From contig CAYVOL010000002.1 in the NCBI GenBank assembly GCA_964453135.1, positions 55,094 to 119,093 on the forward strand: DNA of 64,000 nt, given 5' to 3'. Within the stretch, counting starts at the first letter, position 1; each line of letters opens with the position of its first letter. The stretch comes from an uncultured Candidatus Saccharibacteria bacterium. GTDB lineage: Bacteria; Patescibacteriota; Minisyncoccia; UBA6257; UBA9933. Positions 20,868 to 62,166 of this stretch are shown here, piece after piece. Both the position numbers and the translations under genes were made by a program. The notes beneath the pieces are model-generated. The model was given only the letters and a program-made list of their open reading frames with translations, was not told the DNA's origin and did not search any database.

Positions 20868-23063
20868 ATGTTTATAATGAAGAAAATTCTTTTGATTGAC
20901 GCTAACGCTCTTATTCACCGGAGTTTTCACGCTTTGCCGTCTTTTGCTTCTTCCACCGGACAAGCCACGGGCGCGCTTTACGGCTTATCCAATATCCTCT
21001 TGAAAATTCTTAAAAAAGATCCGCCGGATTATTTAGCCGCTTTTTTTGACCGGCCCGAGCCTACTTTTCGCAAAGAACTTTATTCGGAATACAAGGCGCA
21101 TCGTCCTAAAGCTCCGGACGAGCTTATCTCCCAAATTAAGGAAGCTCGCCGGCTTTTTGAGCAGTTTGGCGTCAAAGTTTTTGAAATTCCTGGTTTTGAG
21201 GCCGATGATTTAATCGGCGCGGCGGTGAAAAAATTTAAAGACGCCAATCAATCTCAAATAGTTATTCTTACCGGCGACTTGGATACCTTGCAGCTGGTGG
21301 AGGGTAATAAAATTGTGGTGGAGGCGCTGAAAAAAGGAATCTCCGAGACCATAATTTACAACGAGACAGCAGTGAAAGAAAAATACGGAATTTCTCCCGA
21401 ACAAATTCCCGATTATAAAGGGTTGGTGGGCGACCAATCCGACAATATTCCGGGCGTGAAAGGAGTGGGCCCGAAAACCGCCGCCGCTTTTATTCAAAAA
21501 TACAAAACTTTGGAAAATTTTTTCCAAAAACATCAGGGAGCTGGACGCGAGCAAGAGAAAACAGCCGAAGAAAAATTAGGAAAAAAATCAGAAAGCGCCA
21601 TTCAGAAAATTATCAGCGAAAAAGAAATTGCTTTGCTTTCCAAAAGATTGGCTGTTATTAATCAGGAAGCGTCTTTGGCCATTGATAATTTGGAAGAAAT
21701 AAAATACGGGAAGCTTCCTTTGGAGCATATTATCAAATACTTTGAAAGTTTGGGCTTTCAGAGTCTGATAAAACGGCTGCGCGAATTTCAGGAAATCTCC
21801 CAGAAAAATTTATTGGCGCATGACCATTTGCCCGCCAAGGAAATAGAATTTTTGAAACACCAGCCCACCTTGTCTTTGAAGATAGCGGAAGAAGTGGAAG
21901 CGCCTCTCACCGCCATTTTAAAGGAAATGGAAAACATCGGCATAAAGGTTGATATCGCAAAATTGAAAGAAAAGCGGAGCGCGGTAGAAAAAGGGCTGGA
22001 TAAATTAACCAAAGAAATTTATCAGGAAGCCGGGGAAGTTTTTAATATTAACTCTCCCAAACAAACCCTGGATATTCTTAACAAAAAATTTAAGCTGTCT
22101 TTGCGCTCTACTGCTTATGAGAAATTGATCAAGTTAAAAAACGTTTCTTTGGCGAAATTAATTCTTGAGTACCGCGAACTTTTTAAACTGAATTCAACAT
22201 ATTTTATTCCTCTTATTGAACGGGCATCGCAAGATGCCAAAAGCCGCATTCACCCTACTTTTGTGCAGCTGAAAGCCGCCACGGGCCGCATCACTTGCGA
22301 AAATCCTAATTTGCAGAACATCCCCAAGAGCGCGCGCGATGTTTTCGTGCCTGAAAAAGGCTATAAACTGGCGGCTTTTGATTATTCCCAAATTGAACTG
22401 CGCATCATTGCTTCTTTGTGCGAAGACGCGGAAATGATAAATGTTTTTTTAAGCGGCAAGGATATTCATCAAATGACTGCCTCGAAAATCTTTCGGGTGA
22501 AATCCGAAGACGTCAATTCTTCTATGCGCCAAATCGCCAAGACATTGAACTTCGGCATTATTTACGGAATGGGCAGCCGCAGCTTCAGCGAGGGAAGCGG
22601 GCTGAGTTTGGCAGAGGCGAAAAAATTTATCGCGGAATATTTTGCCGGCTTCCCGGCTATTAAAATTTGGCAGGAGAATGTTTTGAAAGACGCGCGCCAG
22701 AACGGTTATGTGGAAAATTTAAACGGACGGCGCCGGTATTTGCCGGAAATAATTTCTTTTAACCCCCGGATTCAGGCTGAGGCGGAAAGAATGGCGGTTA
22801 ATTTTCCGGTGCAAAGTTTGGCGGCGGACATTATTAAAATGGCGATGATAGGAACTAAGGAAAAATTAACCGAAAAAAATTATTGGAGCGTTAAAGCGCA
22901 TATGCTTCTGACCATTCACGACGAATTGGTGTTTGAAATTAAAGACGACGAATCACTTCCCGGAATCGCCGCTTTAATTAAGGAAACAATGGAGAATGTT
23001 TATGTTTTAAAAGCGCCGCTATCGGTAAAGTCGGCCGCAGGGGATAGCTGGAAAGATTTATAA
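20868..23063 (+). CDS. polA: DNA polymerase I (5'-3' exonuclease + polymerase domains, no recognisable 3'-5' proofreading domain)
   Basis: N-terminal FEN-like LLIDANALIHRSFHAL. Pol A motifs DYSQIELRI, RQIAKTLNFGIIYGM, HDELVFE. 731 aa. Confidence 0.9.
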   Translation: MFIMKKILLIDANALIHRSFHALPSFASSTGQATGALYGLSNILLKILKKDPPDYLAAFFDRPEPTFRKELYSEYKAHRPKAPDELISQIKEARRLFEQFGVKVFEIPGFEADDLIGAAVKKFKDANQSQIVILTGDLDTLQLVEGNKIVVEALKKGISETIIYNETAVKEKYGISPEQIPDYKGLVGDQSDNIPGVKGVGPKTAAAFIQKYKTLENFFQKHQGAGREQEKTAEEKLGKKSESAIQKIISEKEIALLSKRLAVINQEASLAIDNLEEIKYGKLPLEHIIKYFESLGFQSLIKRLREFQEISQKNLLAHDHLPAKEIEFLKHQPTLSLKIAEEVEAPLTAILKEMENIGIKVDIAKLKEKRSAVEKGLDKLTKEIYQEAGEVFNINSPKQTLDILNKKFKLSLRSTAYEKLIKLKNVSLAKLILEYRELFKLNSTYFIPLIERASQDAKSRIHPTFVQLKAATGRITCENPNLQNIPKSARDVFVPEKGYKLAAFDYSQIELRIIASLCEDAEMINVFLSGKDIHQMTASKIFRVKSEDVNSSMRQIAKTLNFGIIYGMGSRSFSEGSGLSLAEAKKFIAEYFAGFPAIKIWQENVLKDARQNGYVENLNGRRRYLPEIISFNPRIQAEAERMAVNFPVQSLAADIIKMAMIGTKEKLTEKNYWSVKAHMLLTIHDELVFEIKDDESLPGIAALIKETMENVYVLKAPLSVKSAAGDSWKDL

Positions 23064-29401: not shown

Positions 29402-30613
29402 ATGAATAAGGCTTTCACCCTCATAGAACTTCTGATAGTTATTGCCATCTTGGCTATATTAGCCACGGTAATTACTTTAGCCATCAACCCCATAGAATAC
29501 TTCAAACAAACCAGAGATGCCAAAAGAATGGCGGAACTCAATGCCTTAAACCAAGCCCTCCAGATATACGATGCCAGCAATGTAAACATCATCAGCCAGC
29601 AATCCTCCACCACTGTCTACGTCTCTATTGCCGACCCCAATATTACTGGAAACTCCACTTCTTCCTGTTCCAATATGGGTCTTCCCTCCCTTCCCTCCAA
29701 CTACTCCTACTACTGCGTTTCCCAAGCTAATCTCAGAAAAACAGACGGCACGGGCTGGATACCTGTCAACTTCCAATCCCTGTCTTCTGGTTCTCCTTTA
29801 TCCGCCTTGCCCATTGATCCGATAAACACCACTTCTTCTGGGAATTATTATACCTATACGCAAGGAGGGAGTTGGGAATTAACTACCATCTTTGAATCCC
29901 AAAAATATATTGATAAGGCCGCGCAAGACGGCGGACCAGATTCGGCAATGTATGAAATAGGGACTAATCTTTCTCTTTCCCCGTTTGTACACGGCTTATT
30001 GGGCTATTGGCAATTAGATGAAAATAGCGGAACAATTGCAAGTGATTTGAGTGGCAATGGCCACAATGGAACATGGAATGGATCTGGCAACCATTTTGCT
30101 ACAGGGAAAGTCGGCCTTTTTGCAGGCCAATTTAATGGCAGCGACGATTATGTAAGCATAAATACGTGGCCGTCGTCTTCTCATGAGCCGCTTACTATAG
30201 GAGGATGGTTTAATGTTCTTGGGGGCGGGAATTATATGGCGGGATTAGTTGATAAAAATGCACGTTTTTCATTATTCTCCAATGCCGCTAATGGAGCAAT
30301 CGAGGTATTTGCTGGTGGCGCTATTAGTTGTGGTTATGATGAATTGTGGGCTAATAGTAAAATGTTAGTCGGATCGGGTTGGCATTTTATTTATGCTACT
30401 ATAGATTCTGCAAATAAAGTCTCTATATATTATGATGGCATATTAGATAGTTCTAAATTTTTTTGCGGAGTGCCAGAAGGTAGCAATTTGATGAATTTAG
30501 GCTTAAATCCTAATGGTAATCGTTATTTTAATGGTCAAATAGATGACGTCCGCATTTATAATCGCGCTCTTTCCGCCGCTGAAATTGCCGCCATCTATAA
30601 TGCCGAGAAATAA
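29402..30613 (+). CDS. type IV pilin-like protein fused to a C-terminal LamG/concanavalin-A-like lectin domain
   Basis: Class III signal MNKAFTLIELLIVIAILAIL with Glu+5. Shares the ...MYEIGT core with the downstream pilins. C-terminus carries the LamG hallmark GQIDDVRIYNRALSAAEI. Confidence 0.75.
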   Translation: MNKAFTLIELLIVIAILAILATVITLAINPIEYFKQTRDAKRMAELNALNQALQIYDASNVNIISQQSSTTVYVSIADPNITGNSTSSCSNMGLPSLPSNYSYYCVSQANLRKTDGTGWIPVNFQSLSSGSPLSALPIDPINTTSSGNYYTYTQGGSWELTTIFESQKYIDKAAQDGGPDSAMYEIGTNLSLSPFVHGLLGYWQLDENSGTIASDLSGNGHNGTWNGSGNHFATGKVGLFAGQFNGSDDYVSINTWPSSSHEPLTIGGWFNVLGGGNYMAGLVDKNARFSLFSNAANGAIEVFAGGAISCGYDELWANSKMLVGSGWHFIYATIDSANKVSIYYDGILDSSKFFCGVPEGSNLMNLGLNPNGNRYFNGQIDDVRIYNRALSAAEIAAIYNAEK

Positions 30614-30628
30614 CTTCTATTTTTTGCC

Positions 30629-32863
30629 CTACTCCAGTTTCAGTGAGAGAATTTTTGAGGTGCCGTCGTTGTTCATAGTGACGCCGTAAAGCACGTCCGC
30701 TGTTTCCATTATCACGCGGTTGTGGGTGATGACGATAAACTGAATCTCGCGGCAAAATTCTTTTATCAATTCGGCAAAGCGGCGGGAGTTTTTTTCGTCC
30801 AGAGGCGCGTCAATTTCGTCTAAGACCAAAAAGGGCGGGGGACTGACGGAAATCAAAGAGAATAAAGCGGCAATGGAAACAAGGCTTTTTTCTCCGCCGG
30901 ACAAAGCATCCAGGCTGTGAATCCGTTTTTTGGGCAAATTAAGCTCAATGTCTATGCCGGTATTTTCTTCCTTTTTTTCCTCCCCGGTAGTTTCAATGGA
31001 GGTCGGTGCGTTTTCTTCACTATCCATTGCATTTTGACTTTTGTCCGCCCCCGCCGCGGCGGATCGGATCGGATTTTGGATTTTCATTTTGGCGCTTCCT
31101 CCGCCGAACATCAGCCGGAAAAATTTGTTGAATTCTTCGTTAATGATTTTAAAAGAATCATTAAAACGGGAAGAGATTTCATTTTTTAATTCCGCGATGA
31201 GATTATGTAAATCCGCCAAGGCCTTTTCCAAGTCGGCTGATTGATTTGTTAAATAATCACAGTGCGCTTCCACCTCTTTTGCTTCCCGGATAAGCGCGTC
31301 GTCTATTTCGCCGATGCTCATCAGCTCGTTTTTTAAGCGAAGAATCTTTCTTTCCAGTTCTTGCCAGTCAGCGGTATTGTCAATAAAGGCGGGGCCCAAT
31401 TTGGAGAAATCTTCTTCGGTTCTTCCATTGGCCAGCCAATCGTTTTTGATATCTCCAATGCGTTCTTCCAATTTTTTATTTTCAAACAAAAGATAATTTT
31501 TTTTGTTTTCCTGCGCTCGGATTTCTTCTTTTTGCTCCTCTTTTAGTTCAAAAGCTTTCCGGAATTGTTCGTTGAAATTTTCCAGATTTTTTTCCAGGGA
31601 TTCTTCGCGCGTTTTAATTTCTTGGATATCTTTTTCTATCAACGAGAGTTGTTCGGAAATTTTTATTTTTTCTTTGTTGAGGTTTTCTAGTTCTGGCTTT
31701 GGAGAAGCGTCAGTTGTCGGACGCCGGAAGAAATCGTCTATTTTTTTAATGAGCGATTTTAAGGAGGAAATGATTTGGGAATGGTCGTTTGCGTTTAATT
31801 TGTCTTCCATCTGCTGGCGGATGTCTTTCAAAAGATTGATTAAATCGCCGGCGGGGAATTGTTGTTCTTTTTCAGGAGTTTTTTGAGTTATTATTTCTAT
31901 GCGCGCTTCAATTTTTCCCAATTCGCGCTGGAGAGATGATTGCCGTCCGGCTAATTCTTCTTTTTCATTTCTTAAAATAGAATGTTCGTTTTTGACAATT
32001 GCTTGAGATTCTATTTTTTTTAGCTCAGCGGACAAAGTGGTCAACTTTTTATTTTGTTCGGCGATAATTTGTTCGTATTCTTGCGCCGAGCGGTTATTGC
32101 CGCTGATGTCTTTTTTTATGCCGGCAATTTTATGGCTGAAATAAATGTTTTCCGCCTGGAGAAGCTCTTCTTTTTTTTGGTCGCGCAGTTCGTAGCGCGC
32201 CACTTGTTTTTTGAGCGTTTTTAAGCGCGGTAAAACCTCTTCCAGCATCAATTTCACTTTTTCCAAATTGAGCGCGGTGGCTTTTAATTTTCTTTCCGCC
32301 TCGGCTCTTTTCAGCTGGTATTCTTTTAATCCTAAAATTTCTTCCACCATCTGTCGGCGTTCTTCCGGCGCGGCTTTCACGAATAAGTCGCTGGAGCCTT
32401 GATTGATGATAGCGATGCCTTTGGCTCCCAATCTAGAGCGGGCGAAAAAATCAATCACGTCTTTGGCGCGGGATTCTGATTTGTTGATAAAATAATTGGA
32501 ATTGCCGTCGCGGGAAACTTCGCGGCTGACAGTTACTTCCTCAAATTCTAACGGGAAGGTTTTGGAGCGGTTGTCAAAAGAAATCGCCACTTGCGCCAGG
32601 CTGGCGCGCGTTTTTTGGGGCGTGCCGGCGAAAATCAAATCTTCCGCCTTGCTCCCCCGCAAGTTTTTCGTTTCCCGCTCGCCTAAAATCCAGCGGATGG
32701 AGTCGGTTAGATTGGATTTCCCGCTTCCGTTGGGGCCGACAATCGCCGTGATGCCTTTGGGAAATTCCAAAATTGTTTTTTGAGCGAATGATTTAAAGCC
32801 GTTGAGCTCTAAAGATTTGAGATGCATTAGGTCAAATTTAGAGCATTTTTTAATGGTTGACAA
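30629..32863 (-). CDS. smc: SMC-family chromosome segregation ATPase, unusually short (744 aa)
   Basis: N-terminal LKSLELNGFKSFAQKTILEFPKGITAIVGPNGSGKSNLTDSIRWILGE. C-terminal LSGGEKSLVSIAALF...LVLDEIDAPLD...QFIVITHNRVIMETADVLYGVTM. Long coiled-coil middle. Confidence 0.8.
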   Translation of the reverse strand: MSTIKKCSKFDLMHLKSLELNGFKSFAQKTILEFPKGITAIVGPNGSGKSNLTDSIRWILGERETKNLRGSKAEDLIFAGTPQKTRASLAQVAISFDNRSKTFPLEFEEVTVSREVSRDGNSNYFINKSESRAKDVIDFFARSRLGAKGIAIINQGSSDLFVKAAPEERRQMVEEILGLKEYQLKRAEAERKLKATALNLEKVKLMLEEVLPRLKTLKKQVARYELRDQKKEELLQAENIYFSHKIAGIKKDISGNNRSAQEYEQIIAEQNKKLTTLSAELKKIESQAIVKNEHSILRNEKEELAGRQSSLQRELGKIEARIEIITQKTPEKEQQFPAGDLINLLKDIRQQMEDKLNANDHSQIISSLKSLIKKIDDFFRRPTTDASPKPELENLNKEKIKISEQLSLIEKDIQEIKTREESLEKNLENFNEQFRKAFELKEEQKEEIRAQENKKNYLLFENKKLEERIGDIKNDWLANGRTEEDFSKLGPAFIDNTADWQELERKILRLKNELMSIGEIDDALIREAKEVEAHCDYLTNQSADLEKALADLHNLIAELKNEISSRFNDSFKIINEEFNKFFRLMFGGGSAKMKIQNPIRSAAAGADKSQNAMDSEENAPTSIETTGEEKKEENTGIDIELNLPKKRIHSLDALSGGEKSLVSIAALFSLISVSPPPFLVLDEIDAPLDEKNSRRFAELIKEFCREIQFIVITHNRVIMETADVLYGVTMNNDGTSKILSLKLE

Positions 32864-32948: not shown

Positions 32949-33656
32949 ATGGAAAAGTTTGATAGGGAAAGTTTTGAGGAATTGACTACGCAACACGAAA
33001 AAGAAAAGAAAGAATTTATTGATAAGGCGCATGGAGAGGCGTTGGAACATGAAGAATCTTTAAAACATGAAGACAAATTAAACGAAGAAGCATTGGAAAG
33101 GGCAAAAAGATTAGAAGCCCAGGAGGGGGATATTAAAGAAAGAATGGAAGAGTTAAAAGAAGGTCTTCCGAGGGTTGTAGCAAGATACTTTGAGCATGAT
33201 CCTGATAGGATTTTTAGTTATGGCTTCAGCAATGCCTTTTGGTACAATACCAAGGATGGAAGTACCGGCTGTTATCAAACAGGGTTGGGAGGAGATTATA
33301 AAAGAGATCGAGAGCGTATTGAAAGCAATTCCGATATTGAAGTTATAGATAGTCAGTCCCTACATATGAACCAAAAACACATTGAAGAACAAATTGTTGA
33401 TTTGGAGGAAGATTATAAAATGGGTAGAATTAAGGAAACCGATTATAAAAGCATGAGAAAAGATTTAGAAATAGAACTCAAGGAATGTTATCCAAATTGG
33501 TGGTATCTATCCGATTTAGAAGCAAAAATCCGATATTTTAAAGAGCACAGACTTCCCTTGACAAGAAAAGGTATTGAAGAACTTAAAAAAGAAAGATCGT
33601 CACCCAACGAAAGGGTGTATTTAGAATTTTACTTTTCTCATCAGTCGATATTGTAG
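32949..33656 (+). CDS. hypothetical protein (charged coiled-coil N-terminus, Trp/Tyr-rich C-terminus)
   Basis: Long ORF, strongly AT-rich. No recognisable domain. Confidence 0.4.
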   Translation: MEKFDRESFEELTTQHEKEKKEFIDKAHGEALEHEESLKHEDKLNEEALERAKRLEAQEGDIKERMEELKEGLPRVVARYFEHDPDRIFSYGFSNAFWYNTKDGSTGCYQTGLGGDYKRDRERIESNSDIEVIDSQSLHMNQKHIEEQIVDLEEDYKMGRIKETDYKSMRKDLEIELKECYPNWWYLSDLEAKIRYFKEHRLPLTRKGIEELKKERSSPNERVYLEFYFSHQSIL

Positions 33657-33689: not shown

Positions 33690-34004
33690 ATGTACGAATC
33701 ACTAGAACAACCAAATCAAAAAAAAGAATTAGGGATTAATTGGCATGATGGTAATCAAGCAGACTACTATCATTTAGGAGGTGGTATGGATAGAGATGGC
33801 AAACATTTTGAAGCAGAATCAGAATTATTTATCTCTAAGGATAGAAAATATATTCTAGTCATGTCTCAGGATAAAGCCAAGCTGGATGAAGGATCTGGGT
33901 TGGATATAGAATATGAAGGACTTCTGTCCAACGCGCCAGAAAGCGTCAAAAGAACACTAGAATACTATAAGAATGATTTAGTTCGAGAGGATATAATAAT
34001 TTGA
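33690..34004 (+). CDS. hypothetical protein
   Basis: 104-aa ORF following the previous one. No recognisable domain. Confidence 0.35.
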   Translation: MYESLEQPNQKKELGINWHDGNQADYYHLGGGMDRDGKHFEAESELFISKDRKYILVMSQDKAKLDEGSGLDIEYEGLLSNAPESVKRTLEYYKNDLVREDIII

Positions 34005-34094: not shown

Positions 34095-34787
34095 TTACCC
34101 CCCGCTGATTTTTTGTAAGGCGTCCTGGGCTGCCTCGGTTTCTGCTTCCTGTTTGGAAAATCCTTTGCCCGTGCCGCTGATTTTGTCTCCGAAGTAAACC
34201 GCCACGGTGAAAATTTTTTGATGGTCTGGCCCTTCTTCTTTTAAGACAGAATACGAAGGGGTTAGTTTTAATTTTTCCTGAATAATTTCCTGCAGTAAGC
34301 TTTTCGGGTCTTTGTAGGTTTTGTTTTTGATTACTTCCGGCACAAGAGAGAGGATGTGGTTTTTGATGAAGCAAGATGTTTTTTCGTAGCCGGCGTCCAA
34401 GTAAGCGGCGCCGATAACCGCTTCCAGGGCATTGGCTAAAATGACTTCTTTCGCCCGGCCGGAATCTTTTTCTTCTCCGCGGGAAAGGTAAATGAAGGTT
34501 TCTAAATTGATGCTTTTCGCCACTTTTGCCAGAGTCTGATAATTAACAATCGCGGCGCGAATGCCGGTAAGCTCCCCTTCGGAGTATTGCGGGTAGCTTT
34601 GAAAAAGATTTTCCGTGGTTGTCAGCTCTAAAACAGCGTCTCCCAAAAATTCCAGTCTTTCATTATGGGGAGTTTCCCAGTCGGGGTTTTCATTAAGATA
34701 AGAGCGGTGAGTGAGCGCTTCTTTGAGCAGTTGTTTGCTATTAAACTCAATGCCGATTTTGTTTTCTAAATTCGATAATTCCACCAA
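34095..34787 (-). CDS. rnc: ribonuclease III
   Basis: Signature ERLEFLGDAVLE, C-terminal dsRBD. Probable TTG/GTG start. Confidence 0.9.
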   Translation of the reverse strand: MVELSNLENKIGIEFNSKQLLKEALTHRSYLNENPDWETPHNERLEFLGDAVLELTTTENLFQSYPQYSEGELTGIRAAIVNYQTLAKVAKSINLETFIYLSRGEEKDSGRAKEVILANALEAVIGAAYLDAGYEKTSCFIKNHILSLVPEVIKNKTYKDPKSLLQEIIQEKLKLTPSYSVLKEEGPDHQKIFTVAVYFGDKISGTGKGFSKQEAETEAAQDALQKISGG

Positions 34788-34916
34788 ATTAAATAATTTA
34801 GGATTTAGGATATAGAATTTAGGCCATTATTTCCGCGAGAAAGCCAACTCCTAAATTCTAAATTCTAATTCCTAACTATAAATAATTCTGTATTCTAACT
34901 TCTAAATTACTAAATC

Positions 34917-35351
34917 TTATTTTGATTCCATTTCTTTATACAATGTTCCCAAAACGCCGTTGACGAATTTTGGGGAATTGGGGCCGCCGAAATTTTTCGC
35001 CAGCTCAATGGCTTCATTGATGGCTACCTTTCTTGGTACTTCGTTTATATCGGAATAAAGCAATTCGTACAATCCGAGGCGCAAGACATTCCTGTCTATA
35101 ACGGGAATTTGTTCTATGGGCCATTGGGGAGCGGATTTTTTAATAAGTTCGTTTAATCCCGGCAAGTGGGAAATGATTCCGTGGATAAGGCGCCAGGCGA
35201 ATTCCGGTTCGTCGATGCCCTCGCCCATTTCTTTTAAGTTTCTCTCCACTATTTTAATTAAGTCTTCTTTCTGCTGATAAAAATCCCACTCGTAGAGCGA
35301 TTGTATAATTATGGAGCGGATAAGATGTCGAGTAGCCATTAATAATGCCAA
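34917..35351 (-). CDS. nusB: transcription antitermination factor NusB
   Basis: [15 protein letters not shown]... [28 protein letters not shown] matches NusB. Confidence 0.8.
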
Positions 35352-38736: not shown

Positions 38737-38822
38737 GCGCAGGTGGCAGAGCGGTCAATTGCATCAGACTGTAAATCTGACGCCTTTATGGCTACGGGGG
38801 TTCGAATCCCTCCCTGCGCACC
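38737..38822 (+). tRNA. tRNA-Tyr (anticodon GTA)
   Basis: Acceptor GCGCAGG/CCTGCGC, anticodon arm TCAGA-CTGTAAA-TCTGA, long variable arm, T-arm GGGGGTTCGAATCCCTC. Confidence 0.8.
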
Positions 38823-38849
38823 GCATAAACTGCGTAGAGAAAATTAAGC

Positions 38850-38923
38850 GCCACCTTAGCTCAGCGGCAGAGCAACTCTTTTGTAAAGAGAAGGTCCCGA
38901 GTTCAAATCTCGGAGGTGGCTCA
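38850..38923 (+). tRNA. tRNA-Thr (anticodon TGT)
   Basis: Acceptor GCCACCT/AGGTGGC, D-arm TAGCTCAGCGGCAGAGC, anticodon loop TTTGTAA, T-arm CCGAGTTCAAATCTCGG. Confidence 0.75.
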
Positions 38924-39104
38924 AAAATTGTTTTCGCCGCAATAACCCATATTTGTTGCAATTACCGGAAAAATCGTGTATAAAATTATAGCCTACGCGT
39001 AAGAAAAATGGCGGGCTACAGTTTTTACCGACGTAGCTCATCGGCAGATTTGTCTGTTGCGCTTCGCCGTAGCGAATGAAGGCGGAGCAATTTCCTGTCT
39101 ACAT

Positions 39105-39177
39105 GCCGAGATAGCTCAGTCGGCAGAGCGCATCCATGGTAAGGATGAGGTCCCGGGTTCGATCCCCGGTCTCGGCT
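39105..39177 (+). tRNA. tRNA-Thr (anticodon GGT)
   Basis: Acceptor GCCGAGA/TCTCGGC, D-arm TAGCTCAGTCGGCAGAGC, anticodon arm CATCC-ATGGTAA-GGATG, T-arm CCGGGTTCGATCCCCGG. Confidence 0.8.
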
Positions 39178-47723: not shown

Positions 47724-48107
47724 GGGGAGCGTCAGGCTTCGACAGAAGACTGCGCCCATAAAATTGCAGGCTGAGGACGGCCCGTTATCCTCAACAATCT
47801 TTCGGGCCAAAAAACAACTGCCAACAAAACATTGGCTCCTGCTTTCGCTTTTGCCTAAGCGGGTTTACCCGCTAAAGCTTTAGCGGCGGCGGGCATCGCT
47901 TGATTGACGCTTGATAAATCAAAAGCGGTGTTATAAATTCAAGATATATTCTTTGTTTGCCGAAGGCAAGGAACTAATTAATTTTCGGCAGGGAATTTCA
48001 AAGATTTTGCCGGATAGTACTTGAAGTTCCTAACTTAATCCGGATAAGCCTGTAGTGATTTTAGGGAAAGTCTTTTGGACAAGGGTTCAATTCCCTTCGC
48101 TTCCACC
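47724..48107 (+). ncRNA. ssrA: tmRNA (ssrA)
   Basis: Starts 3 nt after the smpB stop with GGGGAGCGTCAGGCTTCGACAG. tRNA-like 3' end AGGGTTCAATTCCCT + CGCTTCC-A-CC, acceptor pairing GGGAGCG/CGCTTCC. Internal tag frame gcc aac aaa aca ttg gct cct gct ttc gct ttt gcc taa = ANKTLAPAFAFA*. Confidence 0.75.
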
Positions 48108-48132
48108 GCGACAACTTTTATATTAAGCAGAC

Positions 48133-53904: not shown

Positions 53905-55278
53905 ATGATTTCGGTTAATCTGGTCAATAAATCGGAAGTTCCGCCTTTGAAAAGCGCGTCGCAAGCCGGGCGCACCTGTTACAGCGACGAGATACCAGAC
54001 GCAGATGATGGAAAGATGCTTGACGTTGAGGGGCGATTATTCGACACGGGTCATCATACGACCTGCGAACATTTCTATATGTCGTATGCGATAGAGGGGA
54101 TTGCGGTGGGAGATGTAACATTCGGTTTGCATCTGGCCCATCCTTTCTATAACAGCGATCAGCGATCAGGAAGATTTTGCGGAAAGATGTTTACAAATCC
54201 TGACCGCGCTTATACGCAAATCGCAAGCTATCTCAGCAACTATTGGCCGCTGTTGGATTACTCGCGTCATCGCGAAGTAATGAATTATGTATGCGAGGGC
54301 GTTCAGTTATTCAATTCTTATCTTCCGCGCGCGACAGAAGTCGCGGAGCGCTGGATAGCAGAAGACCGGCCTTTCGCGAGCAAATTTGTTCGGGCGAGCG
54401 CGGCAAAATTCGCGCAAGAGCAGTTGCGGATGTTTATTCCGGTCATTTTTCCTACTGGGCTGATATATACGATTGACCCCATTACGCTCGCTTCAATGTA
54501 TCGCGCGGCATGGAGTCCGCCATTGCGGTGCGTAACCGGCCAAATGGCCGATGCGCTTATCACGAAATATCCGGAGGTCGGATTTATGTTCGGTCCGCGC
54601 GACGAGGATTACGAGTGGGCGCCGGAAAAAATGGAAAATCGCGGAGAGATGTTTTTGTATACTCCTCGACTTGATTCTCTTGAAGTCAAGATTAAGGAGA
54701 ATAAATTTATAGCGCCTGCTCCAGTCGACAAACATCCAATTGATCTGCTTCGGTTTCGCCCAGAGTTTATGGATAATTCGGTGGCGACAATAGAAACAAG
54801 AATTTCGATTTCCTTGGCTACAATGGGACAAGACCAGCGCCATCGGACAATTGAGCGGGGCATTCCGCAATTTACCGGAGAATTTTATATTCCTCCGATA
54901 ATGGCGGGACTCGGGGCTGAGCGTCGGATATGGGAGCAGATGTGTTGGTGGCTATCTTTCAAAGACCGCCTGCCACCGACGCTTTGGATGATTCTCGCGC
55001 CATACGGAGCAGTGGTTTCCTACGAAAAGCGCGCCAGCTTGAACGCGATGATCCACGAGCAAGCCAAACGTTTATGCTGGAGCGCGCAGGAAGAAATTTA
55101 TCATCTCGGGCGCGAGATGAGGCAGGGGTTGCTCAAGCAAGGATACGAAAACTTGGCCGATCTTTTTCCGCCGCATTGTTTCTTTACCGGCCGTTGCGCG
55201 GAAGGAAAGAGATTTTGCGGCAGAGACAGGAGATTGCGGCATCAACCGGAATTGTATTTTCCGGAACGGAGAATATGA
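53905..55278 (+). CDS. tandem-duplicated ThyX-like (flavin-dependent thymidylate synthase) protein with complementary motif loss between halves
   Basis: Half 1 has GHHTTCEH (like GHETPFEH) and SDQRSGRF (like SxRY) but AHP in place of RHR. Half 2 has DQRHRTIERG (the RHR motif), EFYIPP and RASLNAMIHEQ...CWSAQEEI (like [20 protein letters not shown]). Motifs recalled from T. maritima ThyX, not searched. Confidence 0.5.
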   Translation: MISVNLVNKSEVPPLKSASQAGRTCYSDEIPDADDGKMLDVEGRLFDTGHHTTCEHFYMSYAIEGIAVGDVTFGLHLAHPFYNSDQRSGRFCGKMFTNPDRAYTQIASYLSNYWPLLDYSRHREVMNYVCEGVQLFNSYLPRATEVAERWIAEDRPFASKFVRASAAKFAQEQLRMFIPVIFPTGLIYTIDPITLASMYRAAWSPPLRCVTGQMADALITKYPEVGFMFGPRDEDYEWAPEKMENRGEMFLYTPRLDSLEVKIKENKFIAPAPVDKHPIDLLRFRPEFMDNSVATIETRISISLATMGQDQRHRTIERGIPQFTGEFYIPPIMAGLGAERRIWEQMCWWLSFKDRLPPTLWMILAPYGAVVSYEKRASLNAMIHEQAKRLCWSAQEEIYHLGREMRQGLLKQGYENLADLFPPHCFFTGRCAEGKRFCGRDRRLRHQPELYFPERRI

Positions 55279-58572: not shown

Positions 58573-59241
58573 ATGAGTAAGAGGGGGGCCAAGCCAAAGG
58601 GGAAAGTTAAAATAAAGTGGTCGTCAAAATTTGCTTACGCGATTGGGCTCTTGGTTACCGACGGCAGTTTATCGAATGATGGGCGACATATTAATTTTAC
58701 CTCAAAAGATAGGGAGTTAGTTATTTTACTAAAAGATTCTTTAATGATCGATAATCACATTGGTAAAAAAGCGAGAGTGAGCGAGCAGGAGAAAAAATAT
58801 TTTGTTATTCAATTTGGAGATGTTTTGTTTTATTCATTTTTATGCTCTATCGGCTTGATGCCATGTAAATCCAAGAAGTTAACTTCAATCAATATTCCAG
58901 ATAAATATTTTTTCGATTTTTTGCGAGGTCATTTTGATGGCGACGGAACTTTTTATTCGTATTGGGATCCGCGTTGGAAATCAAGTTTTATGTTCTATAC
59001 TGTTTTTGTTTCGGCGAGCGAAAAACATATTCAATGGCTTCAAAATAAAATATACGGATTTTTAAAAATTAAAGGGCACATCAACCATAATTTTAAGAAA
59101 ACGGTTTATGAGTTGAAATACGCCAAAAAAGAATCATTGAGTTTATTGACTAAAATGTATTATGATAACAAAGTATCTTGTTTATCAAGGAAGAAGGAAA
59201 AAATAAAAAAAGCTTTAAAAATTGATGAGTATCATCAATAG
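58573..59241 (+). CDS. free-standing LAGLIDADG-family homing endonuclease (two motifs)
   Basis: AYAIGLLVTDGSL and FDFLRGHFDGDGTF. AT-rich compared with neighbours. Ends 4 nt before tRNA-Leu. Confidence 0.7.
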   Translation: MSKRGAKPKGKVKIKWSSKFAYAIGLLVTDGSLSNDGRHINFTSKDRELVILLKDSLMIDNHIGKKARVSEQEKKYFVIQFGDVLFYSFLCSIGLMPCKSKKLTSINIPDKYFFDFLRGHFDGDGTFYSYWDPRWKSSFMFYTVFVSASEKHIQWLQNKIYGFLKIKGHINHNFKKTVYELKYAKKESLSLLTKMYYDNKVSCLSRKKEKIKKALKIDEYHQ

Positions 59242-59916: not shown

Positions 59917-60582
59917 ATGTTAAATAAAAATAAGAAAAGAGGTTTTACTTTGTTGGAGCTTTTAATTGTTATCGGCATTTTGGCGGTTTTAGCCGGAGTG
60001 ATGATTTTTATTTTAAACCCGGCGGAAACTTTAAGGAAAGCGCGCGATTCGCAAAGGTTGAGCGATTTGGCGACGTTAAAGTCTGCCTTGGGAATTTATA
60101 TGTCCAGCGCGGCTTCTCCTCAGATTGACGGCACGAGCGGAACAGCCAATGATAAATGTTTGGGCGGCGGAGGGACAAAAACTATTTATTGGAGCAATGC
60201 TACTTCCGGCGCAAACACATCAACAACCAATTCCGGTTTTGACGCTTTTTCCGTTTCTACTTCCGGGGTTATCACCGGCAGCGGCTGGGTTCCGGTAAAC
60301 TTAAGCAGTCTTTCCGGCGGTTCTCCTATATCCGCCATGCCTATTGACCCGTCAAACACCACCAGTTCGGTTGCCACCTCCAGCTTGGTTTATCGTTATG
60401 CTTGCAGGAAGTCTCCCTTGGGATTTGAAATTAATTCTCAGTTGGAGTCTGATTTCTACACGGGCGTTTCCAGCGGCGCCGCTGATTGGAGGAAAAATGA
60501 TTCAGGCAACGAGTCCGGTCTTTATGAAGTAGGCACAGACCTGACAATTTTACTGGCCGCTAGCAGCTCTAATGCGTATTAA
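59917..60582 (+). CDS. type IV pilin-like protein (paralog 1)
   Basis: Prepilin signal MLNKNKKRG-FTLLELLIVIGILAVL with Glu+5. Conserved PAETLRKARDSQR and C-terminal LYEVGTD. Confidence 0.8.
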   Translation: MLNKNKKRGFTLLELLIVIGILAVLAGVMIFILNPAETLRKARDSQRLSDLATLKSALGIYMSSAASPQIDGTSGTANDKCLGGGGTKTIYWSNATSGANTSTTNSGFDAFSVSTSGVITGSGWVPVNLSSLSGGSPISAMPIDPSNTTSSVATSSLVYRYACRKSPLGFEINSQLESDFYTGVSSGAADWRKNDSGNESGLYEVGTDLTILLAASSSNAY

Positions 60583-60590
60583 AATAAAAA

Positions 60591-61280
60591 ATGTTAATTC
60601 ATAAAAAATCAAAAAATAAGCTCGGTTTCACGCTTTTGGAACTTTTAATTGTTATCGCTATTATCGGCATTTTGGGTATGGTGTTGTTTTTCCTGATTAA
60701 CCCGGCGGAAACTTTAAGAAAAGCTCGCGATTCGCAAAGAATTAGCGATTTGGGAACAATCAAATCGGCTTTAGCGCTTTACACTTCCAATGTTTCTTCT
60801 CCTCAGCTTGACGGAACAAGCGGAACGGCCAATGCAAAATGTAAAGACGGAAGCGGTACGAAGACAATTTTCTTAAGCGTCGCGACCAGCGGTATTGCCA
60901 CGACAACGGGTATGAGTCCTGCTTACAGCGCTTTTACCACTTCTACCTTGGCCAGTTCGTCATTGACCAATGGCACGGGATGGGTTCCGGTGAATCTGGC
61001 TTCAATTTCCGGAGGCACGCCGATTTCTCAGCTTCCGGTTGACCCGACTAATACTACAAATAGTTCGGTTGCCACCAGCAGTTTGATTTATCGTTATGTT
61101 TGTAACGGCAGTCCTTTGGGTTTTGGGGTTTCAGCGCAGATGGAAAGCGCTTATTATACCGGATCTGATTCTTCCGCTTCCAGCACGGACGTGAGAAAAA
61201 TTGACGGAGGCAACAACGCGGATCTTTACGAAGTCGGCAGCGACCCGACGCTGTTGCCGGCCACGGGAGCGAAATATTAA
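60591..61280 (+). CDS. type IV pilin-like protein (paralog 2)
   Basis: KLG-FTLLELLIVIAIIGIL. Same conserved N-terminal 50 aa and LYEVGSD tail. 8 nt after paralog 1. Confidence 0.8.
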   Translation: MLIHKKSKNKLGFTLLELLIVIAIIGILGMVLFFLINPAETLRKARDSQRISDLGTIKSALALYTSNVSSPQLDGTSGTANAKCKDGSGTKTIFLSVATSGIATTTGMSPAYSAFTTSTLASSSLTNGTGWVPVNLASISGGTPISQLPVDPTNTTNSSVATSSLIYRYVCNGSPLGFGVSAQMESAYYTGSDSSASSTDVRKIDGGNNADLYEVGSDPTLLPATGAKY

Positions 61281-61491: not shown

Positions 61492-62166
61492 TTGCTTGAA
61501 CTTTTGATTGTGGTGGCGATTTTGGCGGTGTTGGGCGCCATTACTTTGTTTGTCTTGAATCCGGCGGAAACTTTGAAGAAAACAAGGGATTCGCAGAGAA
61601 TTACCGATTTGGGAACAATTAAATCGGCGCTGGCTTTGTATTTAACCAGCACCTCCACCGCTTATATAGGCGCGACTTCCACAAGTCCCATTACGACAAA
61701 CGGAGGTTGTCTTAATGGCGGCGCTTCGCTCGGTTCAGCCAGCGGAACGGTTTGGTACAGCGTTAACACTACTTTAGCGAAAGCTACAACTACTTATCCT
61801 GATAACGGAGTAGGCGCCAGCGTCTGGGCTCACGCAACTTCCACCAATCTTTATCTGACCGACGGAACAGGATGGGTTCATGCCAATCTTGACGCTTTGA
61901 CCGGCGGTTCCCCCATTTCCAATTTGCCGGTTGATCCGACCAATACAATAGCCGGGGCAAATAATTCCACCAGCACTGATTTGGTTTACCGGTACGGCTG
62001 CGCGGTTGACAATGCCGCCAATAAATCTATTACCGGATTCGAAGTGGACGCCGAGCTGGAAAGTTCCGCTTACAGCGGAATGGCTTCCACTGACGGCGGA
62101 GATAATTCCCAGCTTTACGAAGTGGGCACTCAGGTAAAAAATCTTTTGCCGAAAAGCGGATTCTAA
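61492..62166 (+). CDS. type IV pilin-like protein (paralog 3) with disrupted or non-canonical leader
   Basis: Mature region FTLLELLIVVAILAVLGAITLFVLNPAETLKKTRDSQR and LYEVGTQ tail are conserved. No in-frame ATG; Asn instead of Gly at -1. ATG at 61461 is in another frame. Confidence 0.55.
   Translation: MLELLIVVAILAVLGAITLFVLNPAETLKKTRDSQRITDLGTIKSALALYLTSTSTAYIGATSTSPITTNGGCLNGGASLGSASGTVWYSVNTTLAKATTTYPDNGVGASVWAHATSTNLYLTDGTGWVHANLDALTGGSPISNLPVDPTNTIAGANNSTSTDLVYRYGCAVDNAANKSITGFEVDAELESSAYSGMASTDGGDNSQLYEVGTQVKNLLPKSGF

What the first reader, a model, noticed from the sequence alone, without database searches (positions are those of the whole stretch)
30629..32863. Mini-SMC: 744-aa SMC with canonical head halves but no recognisable hinge
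The N-terminal Walker A region and the C-terminal signature, Walker B and D-loop are textbook SMC, nearly identical in pattern to Bacillus SMC. The protein is about 440 aa shorter than typical bacterial SMC. The central 400 aa are continuous coiled-coil-like, charged heptad sequence. They contain no glycine-rich hinge motif and no Rad50-type CxxC hook. A hingeless SMC would have to dimerise differently, as in MukB or RecN. Alternatively the hinge is extremely reduced.
Basis: partly seen in the sequence, partly recalled or inferred. Interest (0 to 1): 0.5.

Follow-up and report, generated by a model that had tools for sequence, protein, structure and literature searches.

The report
Hinge-less short SMC of Patescibacteria
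This is the chromosome-organising SMC ATPase of an ultrasmall (Patescibacteria/CPR) bacterium, with normal heads, arms less than half the usual length and a 63-residue two-helix tip where the hinge should be. It belongs to a large conserved family, so nature runs an SMC without the domain textbooks treat as essential.

Summary

No hinge was detected by four tests:
- Pfam SMC_hinge gives no hit at E<=1.
- A hinge HMM built here hits 51/51 canonical SMCs and none of about 290 short ones.
- hhalign probability is 0.1%, against 100% for the control.
- AlphaFold2 (pLDDT 85) predicts only helices between the head halves.

The anatomy is two ~147-aa arms, about 22 nm by rise-per-residue arithmetic, capped by a 63-aa loop-helix-turn-helix-loop apex. 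There is no CxxC and no glycine motif.

It is not an artefact. More than 240 cluster representatives of 696-775 aa, and about 20 of 843-907 aa, share the design. All form one Patescibacteria clade, usually in nusB-rnc-smc synteny.

Hinge loss looks independent in SAR86, SAR11, an Anaerolineae MAG and spirochaetes.

Published tables show ScpA, ScpB and SMC in near-equal numbers of CPR genomes. It therefore most likely still works as Smc-ScpAB, with the apex as the inferred new dimerisation site.

Hinge-less SMC was reported once, in marine Actinobacteria in 2025. No description of it in CPR was found.

The parts
30629..32827 (-). smc coding sequence, 732 aa plus stop. The ORF extends to a TTG at 32863, but the ATG at 32827 is the likely start.
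   Evidence: all homologues start at M-x-LK.
32333..32827 (-). N-terminal head half, aa 1-165. Contains Walker A GPNGSGKS (aa 31-38, 32714-32737), R57, K60, R120/K122 and Q-loop Q143.
31886..32326 (-). N-terminal coiled-coil arm, aa 168-314, one continuous helix. The neck (168-210) is highly conserved.
31697..31885 (-). Apex module replacing the hinge, aa 315-377: loop 315-325, helix A 326-343, turn 344-348 (D348 N-cap), helix B 349-367, loop 368-377.
31430..31696 (-). C-terminal arm, distal part, aa 378-466 (single helix).
31367..31429 (-). Variable loop at the joint, aa 467-487.
   Evidence: The joint is matched structurally to 5xei.
31184..31366 (-). C-terminal arm, head-proximal part and neck, aa 488-548 (conserved).
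30632..31183 (-). C-terminal head half, aa 549-732. Contains signature LSGGEKS (aa 642-648, 30884-30904), Walker B/D-loop FLVLDEIDAPLD (aa 666-677, 30797-30832) and H702.
30962..31069 (-). Acidic, variable-length, low-confidence insert in the C-terminal head, aa 587-622. B. subtilis Smc has only a short loop here (its residues 306-309 fall between the two aligned blocks).
34095..35351 (-). rnc (34095-34787) and nusB (34917-35351), the conserved upstream neighbours of smc in this clade.

Best explanation
This is the orthologous, housekeeping SMC of a Patescibacteria (Paceibacteria/Wolfebacteria-like) bacterium. It belongs to a CPR clade in which the canonical hinge has been replaced by a 63-aa helix-turn-helix apex. 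In this sub-clade the arms are also cut to about 147 aa, roughly 22 nm.

Shown here:
- The ATPase head, the DNA-facing basic residues, the neck and the joint are intact and conserved.
- No hinge fold or hinge sequence remains.
- The design is conserved across hundreds of lineages.

Inferred:
- The protein still acts as an ATP-driven Smc-ScpAB condensin.
- Two protomers engage their heads on ATP.
- ScpA bridges the neck of one protomer and the cap of the other.
- The distal ends are held together by the amphipathic apex helices of two protomers packing into a helical bundle, which takes over the hinge's dimerisation role. The flanking flexible loops would give hinge-like freedom.
- The hinge's DNA-binding and loading role is either dispensable or has moved to the heads.
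For: Orthology and function:
- phmmer gives E=4e-97.
- Invariant ATPase motifs across 144 sequences.
- nusB-rnc-smc synteny in 6 related loci, and in the window with two inserted ORFs.
- The neck regions are much more conserved than the mid-arm (0.51-0.57 against 0.31-0.35 mean top-residue frequency), as expected if a partner binds there.

No hinge.

Family-wide: 696-775 aa in more than 240 of the cluster representatives collected. A second class of 843-907 aa also lacks the hinge in all ten members scanned.

Apex:
- It is conserved in position and amphipathic pattern.
- Hydrophobic positions are a/d/e. The hydrophobic fraction is 0.36-0.42 against 0.26-0.27 in the arms.
- Its pLDDT is about 70, between loops with pLDDT below 50.

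Arm balance: 147 aa in the N-arm against 146 helical residues in the C-arm, but only if 315-377 is an extra module.

Partners: Meheust 2019 Table S2 lists scpA in 1010 CPR genomes, scpB in 1006 and the single SMC family in 1016.

Precedent: in B. subtilis the hinge can be replaced by a Rad50 zinc hook, and short arms work at particular lengths (PMC5344682).
Against: - No multimer prediction could be run, so apex dimerisation rests on sequence pattern only.
- The apex is among the least conserved helical parts in residue identity (0.27-0.31).
- ScpA and ScpB were not found in the 64-kb window, nor within 10 kb of smc in any of the roughly 14 CPR-clade loci I retrieved. Their presence in this genome is therefore unverified.
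- The CPR-wide counts do not prove co-occurrence in the same genomes.
- A cultivated Saccharibacterium has no SMC or ScpAB at all, so the system is dispensable in part of the superphylum.
- TIGR02168 scores just below its trusted cut-off (547.9 against 567.35).
Confidence: 0.6

Rival explanations
1. There is no distal dimerisation. Each protomer is a free hairpin, and the only dimer contacts are the ATP-engaged heads and the kleisin. The complex would act as a head-level DNA clamp, like RecF or Rad50 without its hook, rather than as a two-armed ring.
For: - The apex is short, weakly conserved in identity and flanked by disordered loops.
- No known dimerisation motif is present, neither CxxC nor a hinge.
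- Its extra hydrophobic positions could equally pack back on its own arm ends.
Against: - The position and amphipathic a/d/e pattern of two short helices are kept across about 270 sequences and across both length classes.
- Arm lengths fall in two discrete classes, which suggests the arms still work as paired mechanical elements (PMC5344682).
- All characterised SMC-class proteins with long arms are held together distally. This last point is from established knowledge, not tested here.
Confidence: 0.25
2. The protein has shifted function towards DNA repair. It would be a RecN-like or Rad50-like tether in organisms that have lost RecN, and would no longer be a condensin.
For: - RecN is almost absent from CPR: 6 genomes against 847 non-CPR.
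- RecN is also a short SMC-like protein whose Pfam architecture shows only SMC_N (554 aa).
- ruvB lies nearby.
Against: - The RecN model scores 50.7 bits against a cut-off of 407.85, and the Rad50 models score 70 bits or less against cut-offs of 700 or more.
- The head is far closer to Smc.
- The smc-type synteny with rnc is kept.
- The neck and joint are conserved.
- ScpA and ScpB are as frequent as SMC in CPR.
Confidence: 0.1
3. It is an artefact or a decaying gene: an internal deletion, a misassembly or a pseudogene.
For: - It is a single-contig MAG-type sequence.
- One related locus (L007) carries a frameshifted copy.
Against: - More than 240 independent cluster representatives from many sources have the same length and architecture, including complete genomes of 0.8-1.0 Mb.
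- The ATPase motifs are invariant.
- The AF2 model is confident.
Confidence: 0.02
4. It is a defence-system SMC-like ATPase (Lamassu LmuB, Wadjet JetC or MADS mad3) rather than the chromosomal SMC.
For: PADLOC hits: mad3 at 221 bits, LmuB at 76 bits and JetC at 30 bits.
Against: - These scores are far below the SMC_prok_B score of 548 bits.
- The mad3 profile (374 positions) matches across residues 3-730, so it can only be covering the head halves.
- The neighbours are housekeeping genes: rnc, nusB, ruvB, rpsB, polA and yidC.
- The phylogeny of the heads follows the organismal groups.
Confidence: 0.02

Closest known systems
Bacterial Smc of Smc-ScpAB (B. subtilis / G. stearothermophilus Smc; TIGR02168)
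   Same: - Head fold and all ATPase motifs.
- Basic residues K60, R120 and K122.
- Kleisin-binding neck region and joint.
- rnc-smc gene order.

   Different: - No hinge domain.
- Arms of about 147 aa instead of about 340 aa.
- A 36-aa acidic insert in the C-terminal head.
- It scores just under the family's trusted cut-off.

Engineered B. subtilis Mini-Smc and Smc(Rad50 zinc hook) chimeras (Buermann et al. 2017, PMC5344682)
   Same: - Shortened arms, with the hinge replaced by an unrelated small dimerisation element.
- My landmark-based arm estimates (about 158, 228 and 344 aa) lie close to the natural modes they report (163, 238 and 341 aa).

   Different: - This one is natural, not engineered.
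- The replacement is a Cys-free two-helix module, not a zinc hook.
- Arms of about 150 aa are shorter than any functional engineered construct they describe, whose shortest window was 253-267 aa.
'Hinge-less' SMC clade of marine Actinobacteria-like metagenomes (Sussfeld et al. 2025, PMC12153180)
   Same: SMC-type heads, an antiparallel coiled coil, no hinge and no CxxC. It is interpreted there as loss of the hinge within true SMCs.
   Different: - A different lineage: theirs branches at the base of Actinobacteria.
- They do not describe CPR, an apex module, arm-length classes or ScpAB.
Rad50 / SbcC
   Different: No CxxC zinc hook. Rad50 models score 70 bits or less against cut-offs of 700 or more. 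No Mre11/SbcD was seen among the neighbours tested.
RecN
   Same: A short SMC-like protein with a short coiled coil and no SMC hinge.
Archaeal hinge-poor SMC relatives (ASRP, NF045487)
   Same: A short SMC-superfamily ATPase. That these lack a canonical hinge is from memory, not tested here.
   Different: It scores 63 bits against a cut-off of 300. This protein is a bacterial Smc orthologue, not a separate paralogous family.

Membership tests
Bacterial SMC (Smc of Smc-ScpAB) | ABC-type head with Walker A, Q-loop, signature motif, Walker B, D-loop and H-loop | tested here: met
Bacterial SMC (Smc of Smc-ScpAB) | Long antiparallel intramolecular coiled coil with a head-proximal joint | tested here: met
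   AF2 helices 168-314 and 378-548 with a break at 467-487. 500 of 517 residues of 5xei (head, coiled coil and joint) are aligned. The arms are only about 147 aa.
Bacterial SMC (Smc of Smc-ScpAB) | Central hinge dimerisation domain (Pfam PF06470) | tested here: not met
   No Pfam hit at E<=1. The local hinge HMM is negative, while all canonical SMCs it was built from score E<=1e-22. hhalign probability is 0.1% against 100% for the control. There is no strand in the centre of the AF2 model.
Bacterial SMC (Smc of Smc-ScpAB) | Score above the curated equivalog cut-off (TIGR02168) | tested here: not met
   547.9 bits against a cut-off of 567.35. This explains why NCBI names family members 'AAA family ATPase'.
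Bacterial SMC (Smc of Smc-ScpAB) | Orthologous position and phylogeny (rnc-smc neighbourhood; heads follow organismal groups) | tested here: met
   nusB-rnc-smc in L001-L004, L011 and L012, and in the window. The CPR clade sits beside Chloroflexota in the NJ tree.
Bacterial SMC (Smc of Smc-ScpAB) | ScpA (kleisin) and ScpB partners encoded in the same genome | tested here: inconclusive
   None in the window, nor within 10 kb of smc in any of the roughly 14 CPR-clade loci I retrieved. A Lysobacteraceae control was detected at 1e-41 and 6e-26. CPR-wide counts are scpA 1010, scpB 1006 and SMC 1016 genomes.
Rad50 / SbcC | CxxC zinc hook at the coiled-coil apex | tested here: not met
   No Cys between residues 1 and 522. 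CxxC occurs in the central region of 2 of 270 family members.
Rad50 / SbcC | Family HMM score | tested here: not met
   Best Rad50 model scores 69.8 bits against a cut-off of 700.
RecN | Family HMM score (TIGR00634) | tested here: not met
   50.7 bits against a cut-off of 407.85.
MukB / MksB / JetC | Family-specific head and hinge profiles | tested here: not met
Hinge-less SMC (Sussfeld et al. 2025) | True SMC head, coiled coil, no hinge, no CxxC | tested here: met
   set against the description.
Hinge-less SMC (Sussfeld et al. 2025) | Membership of their monophyletic marine clade at the base of Actinobacteria | not tested
The CPR sequences form their own clade next to Chloroflexota in my tree, which contains no Actinobacteria.

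The most novel reading that the evidence does not exclude
The SMC hinge was lost once, at or near the base of Patescibacteria, and replaced by a two-helix apex that dimerises on its own. A complete Smc-ScpAB machine then kept working across a large part of the superphylum with arms of only about 150 or 230 aa, two of the discrete arm lengths seen in canonical SMCs. Together with apparently independent hinge losses in SAR86, SAR11, an Anaerolineae MAG and spirochaetes, this would make the hinge a dispensable accessory. It would also provide a natural minimal SMC (about 730 aa, about 22-nm arms) for testing loop-extrusion models.
Probability: 0.4. Interest if true: 0.75.

Novelty: new variant of a known kind. 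Interest (0 to 1): 0.6.

Why it matters
In all current models the hinge is the constitutive dimerisation site of SMC complexes, and it is implicated in DNA binding, loading and gate opening. A large, ancient and successful bacterial radiation that keeps canonical heads, neck and joint but has no hinge and less than half the arm length is a natural deletion experiment.
- It indicates which parts of the machine are indispensable.
- The two discrete arm-length classes fit the idea that arm length is mechanically quantised.
- It offers a compact protein, about 730 aa, for structural and single-molecule work.

There is also a practical point. These proteins fall just under the SMC equivalog cut-off and are widely annotated as 'AAA family ATPase'. 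Surveys may therefore under-count SMC in CPR, SAR11 and SAR86.

Tried and rejected
- Literature searches for SMC and hinge with Patescibacteria, CPR or Pelagibacter, and for ScpB with Patescibacteria, found nothing relevant.
- phmmer with B. subtilis ScpA and ScpB sequences written from memory, run against all ORFs of the window and 81 loci, found only the Lysobacteraceae pair. That hit validates the queries. It leaves ScpAB unlocated for this genome.
- Twenty other window ORFs scanned in Pfam while looking for ScpA/ScpB or other partners are unrelated housekeeping genes, and three have no hit.
- The two ORFs between rnc and smc (32949-33656 and 33690-34004) have no Pfam hit and no homologue in the related loci. 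I rejected them as candidate partners.
- Looking up the source contig through exact-protein look-ups failed three times.
- The Southlakia genome tables showed no SMC at all, so they say nothing about a hinge-less SMC working with ScpAB.
- phmmer of the central 141 aa against PDB sequences gave only chance coiled-coil hits.
- The afdb50 fold library was unavailable.
- L007 was tested for an alternative genetic code. The interruption is a frameshift or stop, not TGA recoding.
- The roughly 1100-aa Omnitrophota and Deferribacteraceae SMCs are not the same design. They carry a small non-helical central segment that neither Pfam nor my HMM recognises.
Full report
**What is there**

The minus strand of 30629-32863 holds an uninterrupted ORF. 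From the first possible start, a TTG, it would encode 744 aa. All 29 aligned homologues begin at the methionine encoded by the ATG at 32827 (MHLKSLELNGFKSF), so the protein is most likely 732 aa.

Pfam finds SMC_N spanning residues 2-724 (3e-67). It finds no SMC_hinge, even at E<=1. The NCBIfam equivalog for bacterial SMC (TIGR02168) scores 547.9 bits, just under its cut-off of 567.35. Rad50, RecN, ASRP and RecF models score an order of magnitude below their cut-offs.

Against PDB sequences the best match is the B. subtilis Smc head (3zgx, E=4.4e-97). The aligned features are Walker A, R57, K60, R120/K122, the helix after the joint, the signature motif, Walker B and the D-loop.

**Is the hinge really absent?**

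Four independent tests say yes.

1. Pfam SMC_hinge is silent on this protein, on ten 812-907-aa relatives and on 15 further short SMCs from genome contigs. It detects the hinge in canonical controls, Selenomonas at 3e-35 and Lysobacteraceae at 2e-5.
2. I built a hinge HMM from 51 canonical bacterial SMCs. It recovers all of them at E<=1e-22. With filters off, it gives nothing better than E=0.003 among about 290 short sequences.
3. Profile-profile comparison of the family's central region with the hinge alignment gives 0.1% probability. A split-half hinge control gives 100%.
4. AlphaFold2 with a 144-sequence alignment (mean pLDDT 85.4, pTM 0.67) predicts only helices and loops between residues 143 and 577.

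The only cysteines are at 523 and 692. CxxC occurs in the central region of 2 of 270 family members, and a glycine-rich hinge-type motif in 2 of 270.

**Anatomy (with conservation)**

| Residues | Element |
|---|---|
| 1-165 | N-terminal head half |
| 168-314 | one continuous N-arm helix (147 aa) |
| 315-325 | low-confidence loop |
| 326-343 | apex helix A |
| 344-348 | turn, with a frequently conserved Asp |
| 349-367 | apex helix B |
| 368-377 | low-confidence, Pro/Gly-containing, length-variable loop |
| 378-466 | C-arm helix |
| 467-487 | variable loop at the joint |
| 488-505 and 510-574 | helices running into the head |
| 549-732 | C-terminal head half, with a 36-aa acidic disordered insert at 587-622 |

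If 315-377 is counted as a separate module, the two arms balance: 147 residues against 146 helical residues. If it is counted as part of the N-arm, they do not. So the tip is a 63-aa helix-turn-helix module sitting on arms of about 22 nm. That length is arithmetic from about 0.15 nm per residue, not a measurement.

The apex helices carry hydrophobic residues at a, d and e positions. Their hydrophobic fraction is 0.36-0.42, against 0.26-0.27 in the arms. This is the pattern of helices that pack against more than one neighbour.

The necks (168-210 and 488-548) are much more conserved than the mid-arm. Mean top-residue frequency is 0.49-0.57 against 0.31-0.35.

**Not an artefact: a large family**

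The word-indexed search returned 120 clusters at 49-60% identity, all 715-755 aa. They come from NCBI, JGI, ENA and Logan. Some lie on contigs of 0.8-1.0 Mb and are named Candidatus Wolfebacteria or Patescibacteria.

The exhaustive representative search (one sequence per 50% cluster) listed 150 best hits. Most are about 700-775 aa. Sixteen are 843-907 aa, one each is 782 and 812 aa, and a few shorter entries look like fragments. None is longer than 907 aa. Named members are Paceibacterota or Patescibacteria.

The roughly 890-aa class has the same kind of helical tip, visible in the sequences. It has no Pfam hinge either.

The span between a head-proximal N landmark and the joint landmark has three peaks:
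- 320-360 residues (235 sequences);
- 460-499 residues (21 sequences);
- 780-860 residues, the canonical SMCs with a hinge.

Almost nothing lies between 380 and 440. After subtracting the apex or the hinge and correcting for landmark offsets, this gives arms of about 158, 228 and 344 aa. Buermann et al. reported natural prokaryotic arm-length modes at 163, 238 and 341 aa, and functional engineered arms only at particular lengths (PMC5344682). The agreement is suggestive. My sample is ranked by similarity to the query, so it is not an unbiased distribution.

**Orthology and evolution**

In six related loci nusB, rnc and smc are adjacent and co-directional. In the window the same order holds, with two lineage-specific ORFs on the opposite strand inserted between rnc and smc. 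rnc-smc is also the classical B. subtilis arrangement, which I cite from memory.

A neighbour-joining tree of the head halves gave the following:
- All Patescibacteria sequences, both length classes, form one clade next to Chloroflexota.
- A 727-aa SAR86 protein groups with canonical gammaproteobacterial SMCs.
- The 798-857-aa Pelagibacteraceae proteins group on their own.
- An 881-aa Anaerolineae protein groups with a canonical Caldilineaceae SMC.
- Spirochaetota (918 aa) and Brachyspira (952 aa) proteins branch elsewhere.

None of these has a Pfam or local-HMM hinge. Hinge loss therefore looks recurrent, and three of these lineages (CPR, SAR11, SAR86) are genome-streamlined. NJ on about 290 positions is weak evidence for the exact branching. 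The grouping of SAR86 with Gammaproteobacteria, and of the CPR proteins with each other, is clear.

**Partners**

Using B. subtilis ScpA and ScpB sequences written from memory, phmmer found ScpA and ScpB next to smc in a Lysobacteraceae locus (1e-41 and 6e-26). It found nothing in the window, and nothing within 10 kb of smc in any of the roughly 14 CPR-clade loci I retrieved. The 30 window ORFs scanned in Pfam include no ScpA or ScpB. I could not reach the rest of the source contig.

Published data help. Table S2 of Meheust et al. 2019 gives these genome counts:

| Family | CPR genomes |
|---|---|
| scpA | 1010 |
| scpB | 1006 |
| the only K03529 SMC family (listed sequence length 755 aa) | 1016 |
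| RecN | 6 (against 847 non-CPR genomes) |

Near-identical counts suggest that SMC, ScpA and ScpB travel together in CPR. The table does not give per-genome co-occurrence.

A cultivated Saccharibacterium, Southlakia epibionticum, has none of the three in its full sequence- and structure-based annotation. The system has therefore been lost outright in part of the superphylum.

**How it most likely works**

Shown: an intact ATPase head with conserved DNA-facing basic residues, conserved neck and joint, no hinge, and a conserved amphipathic two-helix tip.

Inferred: the protein remains the SMC subunit of an Smc-ScpAB complex. Heads engage on ATP and clamp DNA. ScpA binds the conserved neck and cap. 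The two protomers are joined distally by their apex helices forming a bundle, and the flanking flexible loops allow the arms to open and close.

The B. subtilis experiments show this is mechanistically plausible, because there the hinge can be swapped for a Rad50 zinc hook.

The main rival is that the tips do not associate and the complex works as a head-level clamp. A weaker rival is a shift to a RecN-like repair role in organisms lacking RecN. Artefact, pseudogene and defence-system readings are excluded by family conservation, gene context and scores.

**Novelty**

In the held literature the only description of natural hinge-less SMCs is Sussfeld et al. 2025. They found a marine clade at the base of Actinobacteria and presented it as new biology. 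I found nothing on CPR, SAR11 or SAR86.

Database annotation is inconsistent: 'AAA family ATPase', 'chromosome segregation protein' and 'Chromosome partition protein Smc' all appear. The proteins themselves are therefore in public databases. The recognition that a large Patescibacteria clade carries a hinge-less, short-armed SMC with a defined apex module appears to be undescribed.

I rate it a new variant of a known kind, of real interest to SMC specialists. Two gaps limit the claim: there is no test of apex dimerisation, and ScpAB is unconfirmed in this genome.

Noticed in passing
L008 (552-2732), L010, L059, L075, L041, L036, L081: Short SMCs without any detectable hinge also occur outside CPR: SAR86 (727 aa), Pelagibacter/Pelagibacteraceae (798-857 aa), an Anaerolineae MAG (881 aa), a Spirochaetota MAG (918 aa) and Brachyspira pulli (952 aa). 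Their heads group with their own phyla, so these look like independent hinge losses.
   Followed up: partly
L015 (10001-13339), L019 (4722-8027), L042, L054: Omnitrophota, Deferribacteraceae and one unclassified MAG have roughly 1100-1133-aa SMCs with near-full-length arms. In place of the hinge they have a short non-helical-looking central segment of about 80 aa, which neither Pfam SMC_hinge nor my hinge HMM recognises. This may be a third hinge design.
   Followed up: partly
window 30962-31069 (aa 587-622 of the SMC): An acidic, low-complexity, length-variable insert sits in the C-terminal head half. It is present throughout the CPR clade (both length classes) and has pLDDT below 50. B. subtilis Smc has only a short loop at this point. 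Its function is unknown.
   Followed up: partly
window 32949-33656 (+) and 33690-34004 (+): Two ORFs (235 and 104 aa) are inserted on the opposite strand between rnc and smc. They have no Pfam hit and no homologue in any related locus, where rnc abuts smc directly.
   Followed up: partly
window 20868-23063 (+): DNA polymerase I is only 731 aa. The 5'-3' exonuclease (6-280) and polymerase (365-730) domains are separated by only about 85 residues, so the 3'-5' exonuclease-like domain seems almost deleted. The Wolfebacteria relative in L001 has a 724-aa PolA. This is another example of domain trimming in this lineage.
   Followed up: no
window 53905-55278 (+): A 457-aa ORF has a ThyX (Thy1) match only in residues 14-201. 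The C-terminal 250 aa are unassigned.
   Followed up: no
window 58573-59241 (+), in a low-GC stretch (58-60 kb, GC 0.375): A free-standing 222-aa ORF has weak LAGLIDADG/WhiA-like matches. It lies just upstream of three tandem pilin-like ORFs.
   Followed up: no
window 29402-30613, 59917-60582, 60591-61280, 61492-62166: Four paralogous ORFs are related to one another (phmmer 1e-23 to 1e-27). Three carry the type IV pilin N-methylation motif; 61492-62166 had no Pfam hit. The one immediately downstream of smc also carries a Laminin_G_3/ConA-like lectin domain.
   Followed up: no
window 47725-48108 (+); 38737-39177 (+): tmRNA (150.7 bits) and three tRNA genes were found by Rfam. There is no rRNA in the window.
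   Followed up: no
L006, L009, L016, L039: Four MAGs labelled 'uncultured Gammaproteobacteria bacterium' carry SMCs that sit inside the Patescibacteria clade, next to Uhrbacteria. The likely causes are mislabelled or contaminated bins.
   Followed up: no
L007 10001-12267: The smc homologue of a marine Patescibacteria MAG is interrupted after 89 codons under genetic codes 11, 25 and 4 alike. This points to a frameshift, pseudogene or assembly error rather than recoding.
   Followed up: partly
Literature: Meheust 2019 Table S2; Wang 2023 Tables S1-S2: RecN is almost absent from CPR, in 6 genomes against 847 non-CPR. The cultivated Saccharibacterium Southlakia epibionticum has no SMC, ScpA or ScpB but keeps ParA and ParB, both scored essential or growth-defective in Tn-seq.
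   Followed up: partly
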